24,000 bases of DNA from Terriglobia bacterium (lineage in GTDB: Bacteria; Acidobacteriota; Terriglobia; Versatilivoradales; Versatilivoraceae). The translations under genes and the position numbers were made by a program. Below, piece after piece: positions 4,276 to 12,161 of this stretch. The stretch is taken from positions 308,924 through 332,923 of the forward strand of contig JAKUNG010000001.1 of the NCBI GenBank assembly GCA_022452285.1, read 5' to 3'. The notes beneath the pieces were generated by a model. The model saw only the letters and a program-made list of their open reading frames with translations. It had not been told where the DNA came from and did no database searches. Position 1 is the first letter of the stretch. Each line of letters begins with the position of its first letter.

Positions 4276-4425
4276 AAATTTTTGAATCAAAGTAACTAAA
4301 AAATGTTACTAATATTGTAAAAACTAGTTTGATTATCAATCTAAAGAAAAATTAAATTACCCTACCACATGAAAAGTGAACTAGCTAAAAAGTATAGGTA
4401 ATTTATTCCTCCAGATTTGAGCTTC

Positions 4426-5847
4426 ATGAATGTCGTCTTAATTTCTACATATGATTTAGGACACCAACCATTTGGATTGGCTTCTCCTGCAGCTTGGCTT
4501 AAACGTGTAGGAGCTTCAGTAAAATGTTTTGATTTAACAGTCCAAAAATTAGAACCTCCTGTAATAAAAAAAGCTTGTTTGATCGGTTTTTTTCTGCCCA
4601 TGCACACCGCAACACGCCAGGCTATTAAGATAATTCAGCTAGTAAAACAATTTAATTCAAAAGCCCATTTATGTGCATATGGATTGTATGCGCCACTTAA
4701 TAAAGAATTTCTAAGTGAATTAGGAATTCAAACATTCTTTGGAGGAGAATTTGAAGAAGGCTTGCTTCAGCTCGCCAATGTTATAAAACTAAACCCAAAC
4801 CAACTAGACAAAGTTACAATTAACCAACCGCCTTATATTTCAGTTGCTCGACAGGAGTTTTGTAAACCTGATCGAACAAACTTACCTAGCCTTAAAAATT
4901 ATGCACACCTTCTAACGGCAGGATCAAAAAAAGTTTCTGGTTACACTGAGGCTAGCCGAGGTTGTCAACATCACTGTAAACATTGTCCTATTGTACCGGT
5001 TTACCAAGGAAAGTTTAGAGTTGTCCAAAAAGAGATTGTATTACAAGATATTCAACAACAAATTAACGCTGGCGCAGAACATATTACCTTTGGAGATCCT
5101 GATTTTTTCAATGGAGTTAAACACTCGCTGGAAATTGTGCGTGACCTAAATAGGAGATACCCCCAGGTTAGTTATGATGTAACCATTAAAATTGAGCATC
5201 TTTTAAGATATGCTTCTCATCTACAGAGCTTGAAGGAAACAGGCTGTCTTTTTATTACTAGCGCAGTTGAATCCCTAGATGACCATGTATTAAAGCTTCT
5301 AAATAAAGGTCACACTCAGAATGACTTTTTGAAAGCTCTCGAACTACTATCTGCACTAGAATTGCCTCTTAATCCCACTTTTATTCCTTTTACTCCCTGG
5401 ACTAGCTGGAAAAATTATTGTGAACTGCTAGATATATTACTAGAAAAAAACCTAATGGAATGTATATCACCAGTCCAACTAGCTATTCGTCTTTTGATTC
5501 CATCAGAGTCACCTTTACTAGAATTGACCGAGATTCAGAAAGTAGTAAAAAGCTTTAACAAGAAAAAGTTGAGCTACTCATGGAAACACCCTGATCCTAG
5601 CATAGAAGGCCTATACTGCCAGATTCAACAACAGGTATACCAAGGCAATTCCCAAGGCCTTAGTCGCAGTCAGATTTTTGCTTCTATTTGGACTCTAGCC
5701 CACTCTAAAAATCCTTCAGAACAACATAATTCTATGACTTTTCCTGTACAACCCTCTCGAACAACCATCCCTTTTTTAGAGGAACCCTGGTACTGCTGAG
5801 CAGAGCCTCTAGATGAGCAGTCTGCTCCTTTTGAATCAGTTCTATGA
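4426..5847 (+). CDS. CUAEP/CCAEP-tail radical SAM (seleno)protein; the in-frame TGA at 5797-5799 is read as selenocysteine
   Basis: N-terminal B12-binding-like fold (VVLISTYDLGHQPFGLASPAAWL). Radical SAM CxxxCxxC motif (SRGCQHHCKHCPIV). The track ORF ends ...EEPWYC-TGA, and the same frame continues GCA GAG CCT = AEP, giving C-U-A-E-P, then 12 more codons to TGA 5845-5847. The start could instead be TTG 4417. Without recoding the CDS ends at 5799. Confidence 0.7.
5798..5827 (+). promoter_or_regulatory. candidate bacterial SECIS hairpin(s) downstream of, and overlapping, the UGA
   Basis: GAGCAGA 5798-5804 is the exact reverse complement of TCTGCTC 5821-5827 (7 bp; inner CUC 5807-5809 / GAG 5815-5817; apical loop UAGAU). 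Alternatively GAGCA 5815-5819 pairs with UGCUC 5823-5827 around a GUC triloop. The two folds are mutually exclusive. Folded by eye only. Confidence 0.35.
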
Positions 5848-5899
5848 GTTACTATTTGCCTCAAAAAAACCATAATAATCGTGTTAATGGAATTTGCTA

Positions 5900-7156
5900 A
5901 TGAAAAGGATTTTGTTGTTATTCACAACAACTGGCTATAATGCACAAGACTTCATTGAAGCTGCACGAAAACTAAATATTAAAGTGATACCTGGCACAGA
6001 TCGGTGTGACGTACTAGACGATCCTTGGAAAGATGGAGCACTTCCCCTACGTTTTACCCGTCCGAGTGAAGCAGCACAAAAAATCATGGATTATGCTCGT
6101 AATCATCCAATTGATGCCATTATTTCTGTCGGTGATTCAACAACAATAGCAGGAGCTCTCGCTACAAGAAAACTTAGATTAATAGGTAACTCACCAGAAT
6201 CTGTAAAAAGTTGTCACAGTAAACTTTTATCTAGAAAAATTCTTAAAAAAGCAGGAATACCAGTCCCAGATTTTCAAAACATCTTACTTTCTCAAGATGC
6301 TAAAAAATTATCTAAGTCAATCAAATTTCCGTGTGTATTAAAGCCACTTTCCCTTTCAACAAGCCAAGGAGTCATAAGAGCAAATGATTGTACTTCTTTC
6401 GTAAAAGCTTTTCATAGGGTGCAAAAACTCCTTCAACTACCTAGAATTCAAAAATATCAACCCTTTGACCTTGATCAAATTTTGGTAGAAGACTATTTGG
6501 ACGGTCAAGAATTCGCATTAGAGGGACTTTTAAACAATGGCAAACTAAAAACTCTAGCATTATTTGACAAACCAGATCCTTTACAGGGCCCTTTTTTTGA
6601 GGAAACTATATATACTACTCCATCTCGACTACCAACTAGACTGCAAAAGGAACTGTTGTCCTGCTGTCAAAAAGCTTCTCAGGCACTGGGACTAACTGAT
6701 GGTCCAATCCATGCAGAACTTAGACTCAACCGAGAAGGGCCTTGGATTATTGAAATTGCTCCAAGGACCATCGGTGGTCTTTGTTCTAGAGCACTTCGTT
6801 TTGGCATAGGCATGTCTTTAGAAGAAATACATATCCGACACAAATTTAAAATGCCTATTCCCTCATTGAAACTTAAAGATCGGTCTGCTGGTGTAATGAT
6901 GTTACCAATAAAGAGAAAGGGAATCCTACGCAGAGTCTCTGGATTGAAACAAGCTTTATCAATTCAAGGAATAGTTGATGTAACAGTAACGGCTAAAAAA
7001 GGCCAACTTCTTATCCCGCCACCGGAAGGTGACAGCTATCTTGGTTTTCTATTTGCTCGAGGCTCCTCTTCAGAAAAAGTAGAAAAAACCCTTAAGACTG
7101 CCCATCAGCAATTAAGCTTCGATGTTTATCCGGAAGTCCCAGTCTTGTCTAGCTAG
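5900..7156 (+). CDS. ATP-grasp domain protein (carboxylate-amine ligase-like), substrate unknown
   Basis: About 418 aa. Pre-ATP-grasp N-domain (KRILLLFTTTGYNAQDFIEAARKLNIKVI), then LSRKILKKAGIPVPDF, FPCVLKPLSLSTSQGV, ILVEDYLDGQEFALEGL and IHAELRLNREGPWIIEIAPRTIGG, which are typical ATP-grasp_4-type elements. It starts 52 nt after the extended radical SAM CDS on the same strand. An alternative TTG start is at 5894. Confidence 0.8.
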   Translation: MKRILLLFTTTGYNAQDFIEAARKLNIKVIPGTDRCDVLDDPWKDGALPLRFTRPSEAAQKIMDYARNHPIDAIISVGDSTTIAGALATRKLRLIGNSPESVKSCHSKLLSRKILKKAGIPVPDFQNILLSQDAKKLSKSIKFPCVLKPLSLSTSQGVIRANDCTSFVKAFHRVQKLLQLPRIQKYQPFDLDQILVEDYLDGQEFALEGLLNNGKLKTLALFDKPDPLQGPFFEETIYTTPSRLPTRLQKELLSCCQKASQALGLTDGPIHAELRLNREGPWIIEIAPRTIGGLCSRALRFGIGMSLEEIHIRHKFKMPIPSLKLKDRSAGVMMLPIKRKGILRRVSGLKQALSIQGIVDVTVTAKKGQLLIPPPEGDSYLGFLFARGSSSEKVEKTLKTAHQQLSFDVYPEVPVLSS

Positions 7157-8419: not shown

Positions 8420-8743
8420 CTATACTTGGAATGATTCTCCACAACCACAGGTACTCTTAACATTAGGATTATGAAATTTGAACCCTGCCCCGGTCAGACT
8501 TTCTATATAGTCTATTTCGGTGCCATCCAAATAGATCATACTACCTTTATCAACAAAAACTTTGAAACCTGGCATCTCAAGGATCTCATCTCCTCCATTA
8601 CTCTGTTTTTCAAAGCCCATTTGATACTGAAACCCTGAGCACCCGCCTCCAACAATTTGAACCCTCAAACCGGCAAACCCATCTTCTTGGCTTTCGAGAA
8701 TTTCCTTCACCTTTCCTTGAGCTTTTTCAGTGATTTTCAACAT
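8420..8743 (-). CDS. erpA: iron-sulfur cluster insertion/assembly protein, A-type carrier (IscA/ErpA/HesB family)
   Basis: 107 aa. GLRVQIVGGGCSGFQY and the C-terminal CGCGESF give the three conserved cluster-ligand cysteines of A-type carriers. Confidence 0.85.
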   Translation of the reverse strand: MLKITEKAQGKVKEILESQEDGFAGLRVQIVGGGCSGFQYQMGFEKQSNGGDEILEMPGFKVFVDKGSMIYLDGTEIDYIESLTGAGFKFHNPNVKSTCGCGESFQV

Positions 8744-8825: not shown

Positions 8826-9785
8826 TCAACTTTCAAAATTCAATACTCCATTCCAAGGTGGCACTGTAATTGATACTTTACCATAACACTTAGATTGACA
8901 AGCTAATCTTATTACTGGGTGTTCTTTAGCACTGTTTTCTAAATTTTTATAACCAAAATACTCTAGACGACTCTTTTCAAAATCCGTTACTTTCGATAAA
9001 TTCTTTTGGCCAGCCAAAACACCTATCCAGCAATAACCACATGCACCACTTCGACATTGTGCGGGTATAGGCCCTGCAACTTTTCTGGAATCTTCAGAAC
9101 GAAAATCTCGTTTGTCGCCATTACTAGCCATTGACAAATCTTGACCATCAGCTGCTTCAAAAAATACTCCGCTATTCTGTTCATCAAAAACCACTTGATG
9201 TGTTTTTGCTTTCCATCCCAGAATACTCTTAAGTCCTCTATTAACTTCACGACTTTTCAACACTTTATCAGGAGAGTCGGTACTTTCAATGTCAATTAAT
9301 TGATCTTCAACCTTCTTCAAGGATGCGAATCCTACTTGGCTGAGAATCATTAAACTTATAGCAACAATTCCCACCAACAGTTTAGTTTCGATATTTAATT
9401 GATTTCCTATTTGATGTGACAACTTAAGAATATGTTGCTCTAACCTTAATGCTTTTGGATCAAGATTTTCCTTTGAATAGGCCAGAACTGCTTTTTTAAC
9501 TGGAACCCAAAAGCGTGCACCAAAAAGAAATTTTACTGACTCATTAACTTGTTCTCTTAATTGAGGGTTACCATCTAACTGAAACTTTTTAAACGTATTC
9601 TCTAAATTTTTTTCTGTATCAAGGAGCTGAGCTAGTTTAAGGGGCCAAAAAGAAAACCAAATCTGGGTGGCGTCACGGTCAATCTGGTGAATGTCAGAAT
9701 GGATTAAATCAAGTGTTTTAACCCAAGTTTGCTCATCATGTTTTCCTAGATAGTCTTCGAAAGGGAGTTTGTCGGTAGCTTCCAT
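8826..9785 (-). CDS. fusion protein: unknown N-terminal domain + predicted TM helix + C-terminal plant-type 2Fe-2S ferredoxin domain
   Basis: The C-terminus has CRSGACGYC (C-x4-C-x2-C) plus VIRLACQ, the four-Cys pattern of plant-type [2Fe-2S] ferredoxins. A hydrophobic stretch LLVGIVAISLMILSQVGFASL sits mid-protein. I do not recognise the roughly 140-aa N-terminal part. Confidence 0.65.
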   Translation of the reverse strand: MEATDKLPFEDYLGKHDEQTWVKTLDLIHSDIHQIDRDATQIWFSFWPLKLAQLLDTEKNLENTFKKFQLDGNPQLREQVNESVKFLFGARFWVPVKKAVLAYSKENLDPKALRLEQHILKLSHQIGNQLNIETKLLVGIVAISLMILSQVGFASLKKVEDQLIDIESTDSPDKVLKSREVNRGLKSILGWKAKTHQVVFDEQNSGVFFEAADGQDLSMASNGDKRDFRSEDSRKVAGPIPAQCRSGACGYCWIGVLAGQKNLSKVTDFEKSRLEYFGYKNLENSAKEHPVIRLACQSKCYGKVSITVPPWNGVLNFES

Positions 9786-9808: not shown

Positions 9809-9843
9809 CAAGAAAAATGGGCTACCCTTAAAGAGTAGCCCAT
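9809..9843 (-). terminator. rho-independent terminator after the large radical SAM gene
   Basis: ATGGGCTAC 9817-9825 pairs with GTAGCCCAT 9835-9843 (9 bp stem, 9-nt loop). On the minus strand it is followed by TTTTTCTT. It lies about 36 nt after the stop at 9879. Confidence 0.65.
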
Positions 9844-9878
9844 CATTATTTTTCCAGAAAAATTACCATATAATAAAA

Positions 9879-11930
9879 CTACTTAGAAGGAGTCCCAATT
9901 TGTACAAGATCCTGACCTTCCGGTTTTTTCTTTAGAACCATCTCTTCATATACCTTGCGAACCTCAGCTGCTTCTCTTGCTGCCTTACGTCGCAATTTAT
10001 CCTCCTGAGCTGCTGTCTGAGGACCATCATCAACAGTTCTTACTCTAGCTGCATCTTTTTCGTCGATTTTAAGCATGTGTTCATAGGAGCCCAAACCAAC
10101 TTCCTTACCCTTAGCAAAAACTTCGTGTTTGCCATTTTCTCGATACCACTGGGCCACCGTTGCATTTTTATGCATATTTTCAATAATCTTTCTCCAACCT
10201 ACCCCAGTGTTATAAGCACAAAATGAAATCTCACCCTCTTGGGTCCCATAGGGAATAATACACATTTCTGTTCGACGAAAGTCGTAGTTAAACAAATCTT
10301 GAAACCACATCCCTGCAATGAATAGAAAATTCCAAGGATCTGTCCGACGCTTTTTTATATCTTCCATAGTCCGTTCTGGACCTGAGCTTCCATATTTTTT
10401 ATCTGAATCCCCAGAAGCATCCCAAGTTTTATCAAATTTCCTAAGAATGGCACTAAGGGTAAGGCTCGGAGGGGCTTTGAATGGTGAAAAATTCTTCAAC
10501 AAAGCTAATGCCATCATAAAGTTGGAGAACTTTCTCCCGCGAGCAGCATCCGTTACCTTTTGCATATCTTTAACCAGTCCAGGTATATGTATAAATTGGG
10601 GAACAGGAGCCATTTCTTTATTTTCTTTATTAATCATAACAGCTGTTCCTACACCACAATTGGGATGACAACCACAACTAAAAGACCCCCACTGCTGCTC
10701 GGGTCCGTGCACTAAGTCCGAAAAATCAGCAAAGCTTGACATGAGTGAAATTGGAAACCAATCACGGGTTGGCTCTCCTATTCCTGCTTGTTCTTTTACA
10801 TCACTAGCCATGTGCGACAGAGTATAACGTTGCCGATGACGACGGTCTGGAGTAATCTCTTCATCCCTCCCGGTAAACGAAACTGGCTGGAAAGAAACAA
10901 AGGAAATTTTCTTAGGATTCTCAATTGCAAATTTAATAATTGGTCCGACCTGATCATTATTTAAATTGTTAACTAATGTTGTCACCAGAACAATTTCAAT
11001 TCCAGCTTCATGCATGTTATTAATTGCCCGGAGTTTCACATCAAAAAGGTTTCCAACTTGCCTATGCCCATTGGCATCGTTTCCAATACCATCGAACTGG
11101 AGATACGCATAGCGGAGACCAGCTTCAGCAGCTTCTCGTGCAAAAGCTTTGCTCTTAGCAAACTCAATACCATTTGTGGCTGCCTGAACACTGTTATAAC
11201 CCAATTCACGTGATAATCTAATAGCTTTCAGAAAATAAGGAGAAATCGTTGGTTCACCACCTGAGAATTGAATAGACATCTGTCGCTTTGGCTTGATTTC
11301 CATAGCATTCCGCATTATCTCTTCTATATCATCCCAGCTAAGTTCATGGACATATCCCACTTGATTTGCGTCCATAAAACATGGATCACACATCATGTTG
11401 CAACGGTTTGTTAAATCGACAGTCAAAACTGATCCTCGTCCGTATTTTACTGTACTGGTACCATGATTATGAAGCCGATCATCGTTGTGGGCTCTAATAT
11501 CCCTTCCAGGGAAATTACCTTCAATCCATTCCAAAAATTTAACATCACTAGCCATTAAATCTTCAAATTTACCATGTTCTGGACATTCCTTTACCATCCA
11601 TACTTGCCCATCACGCTCAATGATTTGGGCTTTGATTTCACCAACATGTTCGTCAATTAAAGAACGCCAGTCTTTTTCCCCGTTAATAATTTTTTCCCGG
11701 GCTTCCATGACACACTGAGGGCAAAGAGAATCCGTAGTTCTCGGAAACCCAAGTGTAGGTTTAGATTTCTCCCATGATTTTAATAGAGGCTTGTCAGACC
11801 ATTTTGGGGTAAATGAAGGATTGGGATTAAATTGATTAAAAAACTGGATGGAGTTAAAAAGACCCCTTGCTGTGGAACAGATAGCACTATCCACATATTT
11901 CATAACACGATGATTTTTGACGCTAGCCAT
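9879..11930 (-). CDS. large radical SAM protein, COG1964-like architecture (possible tetraether-lipid-synthase Tes/GDGT-MAS-like enzyme)
   Basis: N-terminal Cys/His ribbon (TDSLCPQC ... KECPEHGKF). DLTNRCNMMCDPCF (CxxxCxxC), IQFSGGEPT, ATNG, YLQFDG, FQPVSFTGR. C-terminal Cys cluster SCGCHPNCG. Charged K/E/R/A tail. I chose ATG 11930 (AGGAGG at 11935-11940 revcomp) over the track TTG at 11966. Confidence 0.75.
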   Translation of the reverse strand: MASVKNHRVMKYVDSAICSTARGLFNSIQFFNQFNPNPSFTPKWSDKPLLKSWEKSKPTLGFPRTTDSLCPQCVMEAREKIINGEKDWRSLIDEHVGEIKAQIIERDGQVWMVKECPEHGKFEDLMASDVKFLEWIEGNFPGRDIRAHNDDRLHNHGTSTVKYGRGSVLTVDLTNRCNMMCDPCFMDANQVGYVHELSWDDIEEIMRNAMEIKPKRQMSIQFSGGEPTISPYFLKAIRLSRELGYNSVQAATNGIEFAKSKAFAREAAEAGLRYAYLQFDGIGNDANGHRQVGNLFDVKLRAINNMHEAGIEIVLVTTLVNNLNNDQVGPIIKFAIENPKKISFVSFQPVSFTGRDEEITPDRRHRQRYTLSHMASDVKEQAGIGEPTRDWFPISLMSSFADFSDLVHGPEQQWGSFSCGCHPNCGVGTAVMINKENKEMAPVPQFIHIPGLVKDMQKVTDAARGRKFSNFMMALALLKNFSPFKAPPSLTLSAILRKFDKTWDASGDSDKKYGSSGPERTMEDIKKRRTDPWNFLFIAGMWFQDLFNYDFRRTEMCIIPYGTQEGEISFCAYNTGVGWRKIIENMHKNATVAQWYRENGKHEVFAKGKEVGLGSYEHMLKIDEKDAARVRTVDDGPQTAAQEDKLRRKAAREAAEVRKVYEEMVLKKKPEGQDLVQIGTPSK

Positions 11931-12161
11931 TTTTCCTCCTATTATTCCATCACCTAAGGCACTCAATGATAGAACATTTTGGAAATGGTTTGCCTTGCTG
12001 TATACAAACCCAAAATTAGAAATAAACTTTTAGTCTTTGCTTTATAAAACTCTCCTACTGAATTCATACTTAATCTTACTATTCTAAACTATAAACCTTT
12101 AAAATTATTACGGTTGGAATTTTATCATACTTAGTTAGTTATATTAGGAATACATTTCAGA

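What the first reader, a model, noticed from the sequence alone, without database searches (positions are those of the whole stretch)
9879..11930. Bacterial 683-aa radical SAM with the architecture of archaeal tetraether lipid synthase (Tes/GDGT-MAS, COG1964-type)
The protein combines an N-terminal Cys/His ribbon (SLCPQC ... ECPEHGKF), a radical SAM core and a C-terminal Cys cluster (SCGCHPNCG, later MCIIP...SFCAYN). The core motifs are DLTNRCNMMCDPCF, IQFSGGEPT, QAATNG, YLQFDG and FQPVSFTGR. From memory, this string of motifs matches the archaeal COG1964 radical SAM group. That group includes MJ0619/GDGT-MAS and Tes, the enzymes that couple lipid tails to make membrane-spanning tetraethers. 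A bacterial member would be a candidate for membrane-spanning or branched GDGT-like lipid synthesis, or for another C-C coupling on a hydrophobic substrate. The last 60 or so residues (about 9879-10070) form a highly charged K/E/R/A-rich tail that I do not recall in archaeal enzymes.
Basis: partly seen in the sequence, partly recalled or inferred. Interest (0 to 1): 0.65.

Follow-up and report, generated by a model that had tools for sequence, protein, structure and literature searches.

The report
Acidobacterial Tes-like radical SAM enzyme
This gene encodes a bacterial relative of the archaeal enzyme that joins two lipid tails into a membrane-spanning lipid; it belongs to a conserved acidobacterial subfamily that lacks one of that enzyme's iron-sulfur clusters and has no proven function.

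Summary
It is a true homologue of archaeal tetraether synthase Tes/GDGT-MAS. BLASTP gives 32% identity to MJ0619 (E 2e-67). The AlphaFold model (pLDDT 89) matches 7TOM at TM 0.88, and no other fold comes close.

It is not a canonical Tes. It scores 330 bits on the NCBIfam Tes model, whose cutoff is 450. It lacks the loop carrying the three cysteines of the N-terminal auxiliary [4Fe-4S] cluster. It falls in a separate clade.

It keeps the rubredoxin-like Cys3His site, the radical SAM cluster, the SAM-binding loop, and the C-terminal cluster ligands (3 Cys plus Met) that GDGT-MAS uses for C-C coupling. The subfamily also has conserved N- and C-terminal extensions, so the charged tail is a family trait.

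Homologues are 70-97% identical across Acidobacteriota. The window organism is related to Ca. Versatilivorator.

The literature already proposes bacterial Tes homologues as makers of iso-diabolic acid or brGDGT lipids, without experimental proof. This type matches the second, little-discussed homologue of Solibacter usitatus (Acid_2410). Lipid tail coupling is the best guess, at about 0.5. This is a candidate from an already proposed family.

The parts
9879..11930 (-). Complete CDS of the Tes/GDGT-MAS-like radical SAM protein (683 aa plus stop codon)
   Evidence: ORF. Pfam Zn_ribbon_HMPTM plus Radical_SAM. NCBIfam Tes 330 bits. 7TOL E 1.6e-62. AF2 pLDDT 89.3. Foldseek 7TOM TM 0.88.
11730..11930 (-). 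Residues 1-67: subfamily-specific N-terminal extension, made of an amphipathic helix (2-32) and a conserved Pro/Trp/Lys-rich linker
   Evidence: Conserved in all 15 clade members aligned and absent from MJ0619. Helix pLDDT is above 90. The hydrophobic moment (muH) is 0.61.
11547..11729 (-). Residues 68-128: rubredoxin-like Cys3His ribbon (C70, C73, C116, H119) with a 22-residue insertion after the CxxC
   Evidence: Pfam PF23545 covers residues 62-128. The ligands are invariant and align with MJ0619 C9/C12/C33/H36.
11430..11546 (-). Residues 129-167: linker where GDGT-MAS carries the [Fe4S4]N loop (GCPYDCGLCP). That loop is deleted here and only the His (H156) is kept.
   Evidence: There is no Cys between C116 and C177. 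All clade members show a 10-column gap against MJ0619.
10851..11429 (-). Residues 168-360: radical SAM core with CX3CX2C (C177/C181/C184), the GGEPT motif and the 5'-dA-binding loop FQPVSFTGR (Q348/S351/R355)
   Evidence: Pfam PF04055 covers residues 173-335. FQPVSFTGR is identical to MJ0619 267-275, which contains Q268/S271/R275.
10203..10850 (-). Residues 361-576: C-terminal auxiliary-cluster and lipid-pocket domain. It holds C425, C557, C571 and M541, plus the clade-specific C419 and C421.
   Evidence: These align with MJ0619 C338/C456/C470/M439. They are invariant in 35/35 clade-B sequences.
9882..10202 (-). Residues 577-683: conserved C-terminal extension ending in a charged helix (640-666), the 'K/E/R/A-rich tail'
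   Evidence: Conserved across the clade. AF2 predicts helix 640-666 with pLDDT about 72-82. Composition is given.
11935..11940 (-). Shine-Dalgarno AGGAGG five bases upstream of the ATG
   Evidence: Sequence read.
9816..9844 (-). Terminator-like hairpin (13 pairs followed by a T-rich tail) 35 nt after the stop codon. It suggests the gene is its own transcription unit.
   Evidence: Consensus scan. This is a pattern match only; 4 sites were found in the region against 3.4 expected by chance.
8826..9785 (-). Downstream 319-aa protein with a C-terminal plant-type [2Fe-2S] ferredoxin motif. It may be an electron donor. Linkage is seen only in the closest relatives.
   Evidence: Pfam Fer2 21.5 bits against a cutoff of 21. 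It neighbours the gene in L001 and L002 only and in the near-identical contigs.
8420..8743 (-). IscA/HesB-type Fe-S cluster carrier, co-directional. Fe-S carrier genes recur near the gene in some other loci.
   Evidence: Pfam Fe-S_biosyn 2.1e-21. IscA-like tblastn matches occur in 8 loci, and a NifU-like fusion cluster occurs in 9 loci.

Best explanation
The gene encodes a peripheral, soluble-type radical SAM enzyme built on the GDGT-MAS/Tes scaffold. It belongs to a distinct bacterial subfamily, called type B here.

Inferred mechanism, by analogy to GDGT-MAS:
1. The radical SAM [4Fe-4S] cluster (C177/C181/C184) reductively cleaves SAM.
2. The 5'-deoxyadenosyl radical abstracts a hydrogen from the terminal carbon of a lipid alkyl chain held in a hydrophobic tunnel.
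3. The substrate radical is parked on a sulfide of the C-terminal auxiliary [4Fe-4S] cluster (C425/C557/C571, with M541 as a labile ligand).
4. A second SAM turnover on a second chain forms a C(sp3)-C(sp3) bond.

In an acidobacterium the most likely substrates are iso-C15 chains of glycerolipids. The product would be iso-diabolic-acid-type membrane-spanning lipids, the skeleton of brGDGTs.

What is shown here: homology, fold, the cofactor-ligand pattern and strong conservation. What is inferred: the substrate, the reaction, and the electron path. The electron path must differ from GDGT-MAS because the N-terminal [4Fe-4S] cluster is missing.
For: - **Sequence.** GDGT-MAS is the only close solved relative: E 1.6e-62 against 6e-06 for MoaA, the next hit. 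BLASTP gives 32% identity over 497 columns.
- **Fold.** The AF2 model has pLDDT 89.3 and pTM 0.88. It superposes on 7TOM at TM 0.88, E 3.8e-37. The next hit covers the radical SAM core only.
- **Family models.** Tes is the best NCBIfam model, covering positions 2-483 of 486.
- **Ligands.** The ligands of the rubredoxin-like site, the radical SAM cluster and the catalytic C-terminal cluster, including Met, are invariant in 35/35 clade members. They align with those listed for GDGT-MAS in PMC9433317. The 5'-dA-binding loop FQPVSFTGR is identical.
- **Distribution.** At least 592 GTDB species representatives carry a relative, mostly Acidobacteriota: Terriglobia, Blastocatellia/Pyrinomonadaceae, Solibacteraceae and Chloracidobacterium. 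According to PMC13159169 and PMC13274423, acidobacterial subdivisions 1, 3, 4 and 6 make iso-diabolic acid yet lack Mss.
- **Link to a brGDGT producer.** S. usitatus has a 714-aa second Tes homologue, Acid_2410 (30.1% identity, 4e-62 to MA_1486). That fits this type.
Against: - No experiment on any bacterial Tes homologue was found (PMC11868695, PMC13459092).
- The protein fails the curated Tes cutoff (330 against 450) and lacks the [Fe4S4]N cluster.
- Acidobacteria also possess canonical type A Tes: 44-45% identity to MJ0619, about 1e-150, named Tes by NCBI. Type A matches the Solibacter Acid_5929 and Koribacter homologues that the literature actually links to brGDGT and tetraester production. 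Type B could therefore be a paralogue with another role.
- No lipid or ether-lipid gene is conserved next to it in 80 loci, and none lies in the 24-kb window apart from a distant FabH.
- A sister clade (type C, Terriglobus roseus) has lost both auxiliary clusters. Function in this branch is therefore not uniform.
Confidence: 0.5

Rival explanations
1. Type B is a lipid-modifying paralogue that does not make the primary tail-to-tail bond. Canonical type A Tes, or another enzyme, does the coupling. Type B would perform a different radical C-C or C-H reaction on membrane lipids, such as cross-linking, ring closure, or coupling of ester-bound rather than ether-bound chains.
For: Two paralogues coexist in S. 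usitatus. Type A is much closer to validated enzymes: about 1e-150 against about 1e-65 for type B. Type B has an altered cofactor set and two extra conserved Cys (C419, C421) beside the catalytic cluster. It forms a separate clade.
Against: The catalytic C-terminal cluster ligands, the labile Met and the SAM loop are kept exactly as in GDGT-MAS. Archaeal ring formation and cross-linking are done by other radical SAM families, Grs and Gms (PMC11214058, PMC11186832). Type B is far more widespread in Acidobacteriota than a niche modification would suggest.
Confidence: 0.27
2. The substrate is not a lipid. The scaffold has been reused for a cofactor, peptide or small-molecule reaction.
For: No conserved lipid-gene neighbourhood was found. 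In the window and its closest relatives the neighbours are a 2Fe-2S protein, IscA and MoaA. The sister type C has lost both auxiliary clusters. The second-best NCBIfam hit is TrsS, a non-lipid-annotated radical SAM family, at 223 bits. MJ0619 itself was once assigned to methanopterin methylation, and many JGI names still say so.
Against: The methanopterin assignment could not be reproduced by the authors of PMC9433317. The TrsS cutoff of 490 is missed by a wide margin. The whole C-terminal lipid-pocket domain superposes on 7TOM. The MoaA and IscA linkage holds only in a minority of loci, and a terminator-like hairpin separates the gene from them.
Confidence: 0.18
3. The gene is a decaying or non-functional relic.
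For: One of the four metal sites of the archetype has been lost.
Against: Identity is 70-97% across classes of Acidobacteriota. All remaining ligands are invariant, the ORF is intact and it has a strong SD sequence. The identical protein occurs on 20 contigs from different samples.
Confidence: 0.01

Closest known systems
GDGT-MAS / Tes of Methanocaldococcus jannaschii (MJ0619, PDB 7TOL/7TOM; NCBIfam NF045702)
   Same: It shares the overall four-domain scaffold (TM 0.88) and the rubredoxin-like Cys3His site. It also shares the CX3CX2C radical SAM cluster, an identical FQPVSFTGR SAM loop, and the C-terminal [4Fe-4S] ligands with the labile Met.
   Different: The [Fe4S4]N loop (C73/C77/C80) is deleted. 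There is a 22-residue insertion in the ribbon, a 67-residue N-terminal extension and a roughly 105-residue C-terminal extension. Two extra Cys precede the first C-cluster ligand. Identity is 32%. The HMM score is 330, below the 450 cutoff. The host is bacterial, so the substrate would be fatty-acyl or alkyl rather than phytanyl.
Canonical bacterial Tes homologues (type A), e.g. Bryobacteraceae 'tetraether lipid synthase Tes' (P0486). By score match these include S. usitatus Acid_5929 and the K. versatilis homologue, both proposed to make brGDGT or iso-diabolic tetraesters.
   Same: They come from the same phylum and the same superfamily, and the same reaction has been proposed for them (PMC8941075, PMC10087280).
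   Different: Type A keeps the CPxxCGxC N-cluster motif, passes the Tes cutoff (504-593 bits) and is about 545 aa without the extensions. It is 44-45% identical to MJ0619 but only 34-36% identical to the window protein.
S. usitatus Acid_2410 (Q025C7), the 'second Tes homologue' listed in Halamka et al. 2023, Table S5
   Same: Its length (714 aa), its identity to archaeal Tes (30.1%) and its E-value (4e-62) match type B. A Solibacteraceae MAG carries a copy 71% identical to the window protein.
   Different: Orthology is inferred, because the Acid_2410 sequence itself could not be retrieved here. No function has been assigned to it either.
Terriglobus roseus WP_014786616.1 clade (type C)
   Same: It is the sister branch, at 40-42% identity, and also lacks the N-terminal cluster.
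   Different: Type C has also lost the C-terminal cluster cysteines (C425 to S/A/W/H, C557 to S). It cannot use the GDGT-MAS C-S intermediate chemistry. The window protein keeps these residues.
Mss, the bacterial membrane-spanning lipid synthase of Thermotoga and Thermoanaerobacter (PMC13159169)
   Same: It is a radical SAM enzyme shown to couple two fatty-acyl tails. This is the reaction proposed here.
   Different: Its authors describe it as only remotely related to Tes, restricted to anaerobes, and not detected in Acidobacteria. No sequence comparison could be made here.

Membership tests
Tes / GDGT-MAS (NF045702; 7TOL) | Radical SAM CX3CX2C cluster and SAM/5'-dA binding loop | tested here: met
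   C177/C181/C184 are present. GGEPT is present. FQPVSFTGR is identical to MJ0619 267-275.
Tes / GDGT-MAS (NF045702; 7TOL) | N-terminal rubredoxin-like C-X2-C...C-X2-H iron site | tested here: met
   C70, C73, C116 and H119 are invariant. Pfam PF23545 scores 60 bits. A 22-residue insertion is tolerated.
Tes / GDGT-MAS (NF045702; 7TOL) | N-terminal auxiliary [Fe4S4]N cluster (C73, C77, C80 plus His) | tested here: not met
   There is no Cys between residues 116 and 177. The loop is deleted in the whole clade and only H156 is retained.
Tes / GDGT-MAS (NF045702; 7TOL) | C-terminal auxiliary [Fe4S4]C cluster with three Cys and a labile Met | tested here: met
   C425/C557/C571/M541 align with C338/C456/C470/M439 and are invariant in 35/35 sequences. 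Metal binding itself was not tested.
Tes / GDGT-MAS (NF045702; 7TOL) | Overall fold, including the C-terminal lipid-pocket domain | tested here: met
   Foldseek against 7TOM gives E 3.8e-37, TM(target) 0.88, 559 aligned columns.
Tes / GDGT-MAS (NF045702; 7TOL) | Score at or above the curated equivalog cutoff (450 bits) | tested here: not met
   The score is 330.1 bits. Canonical representatives score 504-593.
Tes / GDGT-MAS (NF045702; 7TOL) | Phylogenetic placement among validated enzymes | tested here: not met
   The NJ tree puts the window clade in the branch without the N-cluster, apart from MJ0619 and all representatives carrying the motif. The tree is distance-based with no bootstrap.
Tes / GDGT-MAS (NF045702; 7TOL) | Tail-to-tail C-C coupling of two lipid chains | not testable with these tools
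   This needs lipidomics or an enzyme assay. The literature says it is unconfirmed for bacterial homologues (PMC11868695).
TrsS radical SAM (seleno)protein (NF045646) | Score at or above the curated cutoff (490 bits) | tested here: not met
   The score is 223.5 bits, covering the N-terminal two thirds only.
Mss (bacterial membrane-spanning lipid synthase) | Sequence homology to T. maritima or T. ethanolicus Mss | not tested
   No Mss sequence or model was available in the tools. PMC13159169 reports no mss homologues in Acidobacteria.

The most novel reading that the evidence does not exclude
Type B, and not only the canonical type A, is the widespread oxygen-tolerant acidobacterial enzyme that makes iso-diabolic-acid membrane-spanning lipids, the carbon skeleton of the brGDGT palaeothermometer lipids. 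It would do so with a reduced cofactor set: rubredoxin-like Fe, the radical SAM cluster and one auxiliary cluster. This would show that the N-terminal cluster of GDGT-MAS is dispensable for sp3-sp3 coupling. It would also give a gene marker for brGDGT source organisms in soils.
Probability: 0.35. Interest if true: 0.8.

Novelty: new variant of a known kind. Interest (0 to 1): 0.42.

Why it matters
brGDGTs are among the most widely used terrestrial temperature and pH proxies. The enzyme that builds their membrane-spanning skeleton in aerobic Acidobacteria is still unproven. Published surveys use one BLAST threshold for 'Tes homologues'. This analysis shows that acidobacterial hits split into three types with different metal-cluster sets.
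- **Type A** has the full set.
- **Type B**, the window type, lacks the N-terminal cluster.
- **Type C** lacks both auxiliary clusters.

That split tells experimenters which genes to express. It also warns that gene-based maps of 'brGDGT potential' may mix non-equivalent enzymes. The gene itself is one ordinary member of a very large, already noticed family, so its individual value is modest.

Tried and rejected
1. **Conserved operon.** I ran tblastn with all window proteins against 80 related loci and clustered the flanking ORFs. Only the two closest loci share the 2Fe-2S/IscA/MoaA neighbours. The commonest neighbour elsewhere is an unannotated upstream protein of about 384 aa, in 32 of 80 loci. 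No lipid gene is linked, so context gives no functional support.
2. **RNA elements.** An Rfam scan of the whole window, including the 640-nt upstream intergenic region, found nothing.
3. **Transmembrane segments.** None were found; the maximum Kyte-Doolittle 19-residue score is 1.06.
4. **Supplementary table S21 of PMC13159169.** This table says which acidobacteria have Tes hits, but it is not held.
5. **Chen et al. 2025 (Geochim Cosmochim Acta).** This paper links Tes to iso-diabolic tetraesters. It is not in the library and is cited only second-hand via PMC13023045.
6. **Organism labels for the representatives.** Most carry no name.
7. **TrsS, MoaA, NirJ and SPASM-type families.** All were rejected as far below their cutoffs.
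8. **Alternative start.** The TTG at 11966 was rejected in favour of the ATG at 11930, on the SD sequence, the homologue alignment and public gene calls.
9. **E. aggregans.** I could not decide whether its single homologue (32% identity, 4e-61) is type B or type C, because their score ranges touch.
Full report
**Observation**

The - strand ORF at 9879-11966 contains an ATG at 11930. An AGGAGG sequence lies five bases upstream of it. Translation from this ATG gives 683 aa. Public gene callers chose the same start on 20 metagenome contigs that encode the identical protein. Homologues align from that point. Pfam finds the HMPTM-type zinc ribbon (residues 62-128, 1.2e-16) and the Radical_SAM domain (173-335, 7.2e-18).

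**Relationship to Tes/GDGT-MAS**

- Among 177,635 PDB sequences the only strong match is GDGT-MAS of M. jannaschii (7TOL, E 1.6e-62). MoaA is next at 6e-06.
- BLASTP against the MJ0619 sequence gives 32% identity over 497 columns, E 2e-67.
- The best NCBIfam model is the Tes equivalog NF045702. It is covered almost end to end (positions 2-483 of 486), but at 330 bits, below the curated 450-bit cutoff. TrsS is second at 223 bits against a cutoff of 490.
- An AlphaFold2 model built on an 80-sequence alignment is confident: mean pLDDT 89.3, pTM 0.88.
- Foldseek places 7TOM and 7TOL far ahead of everything else (E 3.8e-37, TM 0.88 normalised to the target). All later hits match only the radical SAM core, with TM normalised to the query of about 0.26.

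**Cofactor anatomy**

The GDGT-MAS structure paper (PMC9433317) defines four metal sites.

| Site | MJ0619 ligands | Window protein |
|---|---|---|
| Rubredoxin-like Fe | C9, C12, C33, H36 | C70, C73, C116, H119; 22-residue insertion after the CxxC |
| N-terminal [Fe4S4]N | C73, C77, C80 plus a His | Loop deleted; only H156 remains |
| Radical SAM cluster | CX3CX2C | C177, C181, C184 |
| C-terminal [Fe4S4]C | Three Cys plus labile M439 | C425, C557, C571, M541 |

- The 5'-dA-binding loop FQPVSFTGR is identical in the two proteins. Q348/S351/R355 correspond to Q268/S271/R275.
- The window's C-terminal ligands align with C338, C456, C470 and M439 of MJ0619.
- The GCPYDCGLCP loop that carries the [Fe4S4]N cysteines is simply absent. 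There is no cysteine at all between residues 116 and 177.
- Two additional cysteines, C419 and C421, sit just before C425 and are conserved in the clade.
- The 67-residue N-terminal extension includes an amphipathic helix at 2-32 with pLDDT above 90.
- The C-terminal extension of about 105 residues includes the charged helix at 640-666. Both extensions are conserved in all clade members aligned, so the tail is a family feature and not noise.
- No transmembrane segment is predicted.

**Family structure**

The protein has more than 8000 homologues at E<=1e-10. The nearest are 97% and 94% identical (metagenomes). The next is 82% identical (Ca. Versatilivorator, Acidobacteriota, Terriglobia). Identity is then 70-76% across Terriglobia, Acidoferrales, Pyrinomonadaceae/Blastocatellia, Chloracidobacterium, Solibacteraceae and some Gemmatimonadota MAGs. 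At least 592 GTDB species representatives carry a relative.

An exhaustive HMMER search of 50%-identity representatives found 586 clusters at E<=1e-30. Representatives that are at least 39% identical to the window protein lack the CPxxCGxC N-cluster motif and score 170-414 bits on the Tes model. Those at 38% identity or less carry the motif and score 504-593 bits. A midpoint-rooted NJ tree separates the two groups, and MJ0619 falls in the motif-bearing group.

A third clade is headed by Terriglobus roseus WP_014786616.1, at 40-42% identity. It lacks the N-terminal cluster and has also replaced the C-terminal cluster cysteines (C425 to S/A/W/H, C557 to S).

Acidobacteria therefore hold three types:
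- **Type A**, canonical. It includes a Bryobacteraceae protein that NCBI names 'tetraether lipid synthase Tes'. It is 44-45% identical to MJ0619, at about 1e-150.
- **Type B**, the window type. It is 30-32% identical to MJ0619, at 1e-62 to 1e-70.
- **Type C**. It is 27-30% identical to MJ0619, at 1e-50 to 1e-59.

**Literature**

- Zeng et al. 2022 (PMC8941075) reported 456 bacterial Tes homologues and proposed that they make brGDGTs. They cited Koribacter (42% identity, 1e-149), Solibacter (40%, 1e-139) and E. aggregans (32%, 4e-61).
- Halamka et al. 2023 list two homologues in S. usitatus: Acid_5929 (545 aa, 40.2%, 1.4e-139) and Acid_2410 (714 aa, 30.1%, 4.2e-62).
- By length and score these correspond to type A and type B. 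This is an inference, because the sequences themselves were not retrievable.
- Sahonero-Canavesi et al. 2022 (PMC13159169) proved a different radical SAM enzyme, Mss, in anaerobes. They found no Mss in Acidobacteria. Under strict thresholds they found Tes hits in only 3 of 14 iso-diabolic-acid producers. Type B would sit right on those thresholds (30% identity).
- Papers from 2025-2026 still state that the activity of bacterial Tes homologues is unconfirmed (PMC11868695; PMC13459092). A 2025 study that I could only see cited second-hand links the Koribacter homologue to iso-diabolic tetraesters.

**Context**

The gene appears to be its own transcription unit. It has a strong SD sequence. A 13-pair hairpin with a T-rich tail lies 35 nt after the stop codon.

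Downstream on the same strand lie three genes:
- a 319-aa protein with a C-terminal 2Fe-2S motif,
- IscA,
- MoaA.

This arrangement recurs only in the two closest genomes and in near-identical contigs. Elsewhere the neighbourhood varies. Fe-S carrier genes occur occasionally, and no lipid genes are linked. The window contains no ether-lipid genes. No Rfam family matches.

**Interpretation**

Type B keeps exactly those elements that GDGT-MAS uses for catalysis: the radical SAM cluster, the SAM loop, and the C-terminal cluster with its labile Met. It also keeps the lipid-pocket domain fold. The most likely activity is therefore the same kind of radical sp3-sp3 coupling on lipid tails. In Acidobacteria that points to iso-C15 chains and iso-diabolic-acid-type membrane-spanning lipids.

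The loss of the surface N-terminal cluster implies a different electron entry route. Electrons might enter through the rubredoxin-like site or through an external ferredoxin. The neighbouring 2Fe-2S protein is a speculative candidate.

Type A coexists in at least one brGDGT producer and is closer to the validated enzymes. A paralogue with a different lipid reaction is therefore a serious rival. A non-lipid substrate cannot be excluded.

I put lipid tail coupling at about 0.5, another lipid reaction at about 0.27, a non-lipid role at about 0.18, and a non-functional relic at about 0.01.

**Verdict**

The functional idea is already in the literature and unproven. The specific protein is not a canonical Tes. 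It is a member of a cofactor-reduced, extension-bearing bacterial subfamily. I rate it a new variant of a known kind, of moderate interest.

Noticed in passing
window 4417-5848 (+): The 460-aa radical SAM ORF matches NCBIfam 'CUAEP/CCAEP-tail radical SAM (seleno)protein' (571 bits, cutoff 500). Its 'stop' at 5797-5799 is a TGA in the context ...Y-C-TGA-A-E-P. Read as selenocysteine, the frame continues as AEPLDEQSAPFESVL to a TGA at about 5846-5848. A hairpin (GAGCAGA / TCTGCTC) starts at the TGA, as a bacterial SECIS element would. This is probably an unannotated selenoprotein C-terminus. An ATP-grasp / L-amino-acid-ligase-like gene follows at 5894-7156.
   Followed up: partly
window 8826-9785 (-): This 319-aa protein has an unrecognised N-terminal region of about 230 residues. 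Its C-terminus carries a plant-type 2Fe-2S motif (C-X4-C-X2-C ... C; Pfam Fer2 just at threshold). It sits between the Tes-like gene and IscA, and is conserved there only in Ca. Versatilivorator-like genomes (52% and 40% identity).
   Followed up: partly
loci L003-L051 and others (e.g. L038 6660-7670): In 32 of 80 related loci a protein of about 384 aa lies about 370 nt upstream of the type B gene on the same strand. Its middle is low-complexity and its C-terminal domain is conserved (…VWVLTDSDLTTYYYVE…). It has no annotation. It is absent from the window.
   Followed up: no
P0162 clade (Terriglobus roseus WP_014786616.1 and about 776 relatives): This is a sister subfamily of Tes-like radical SAM proteins in Acidobacteriaceae. 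It has lost the cysteines of both auxiliary clusters and keeps only the rubredoxin-like site and the radical SAM cluster. It cannot work like GDGT-MAS, yet homology-based surveys would count it as a 'Tes homologue'.
   Followed up: partly
loci L035, L040, L045, L059, L060 (Gemmatimonadota MAGs): Type B genes at 70-71% identity occur in several independent Gemmatimonadota MAGs, with a shared local arrangement of MoaA-like and IscA-like genes. This suggests real presence outside Acidobacteriota and not a binning error. Single hits in Saccharimonadales, Xenobia and similar MAGs may be mis-binned.
   Followed up: no
window 1-24000: G+C is only about 39%, although the closest named relatives are Acidobacteriota (Ca. 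Versatilivorator, 82% identity for this protein, with syntenic SNF transporter and VKOR genes). That is low compared with the G+C I recall for cultured members of the phylum; this comparison is from memory and was not measured here.
   Followed up: no
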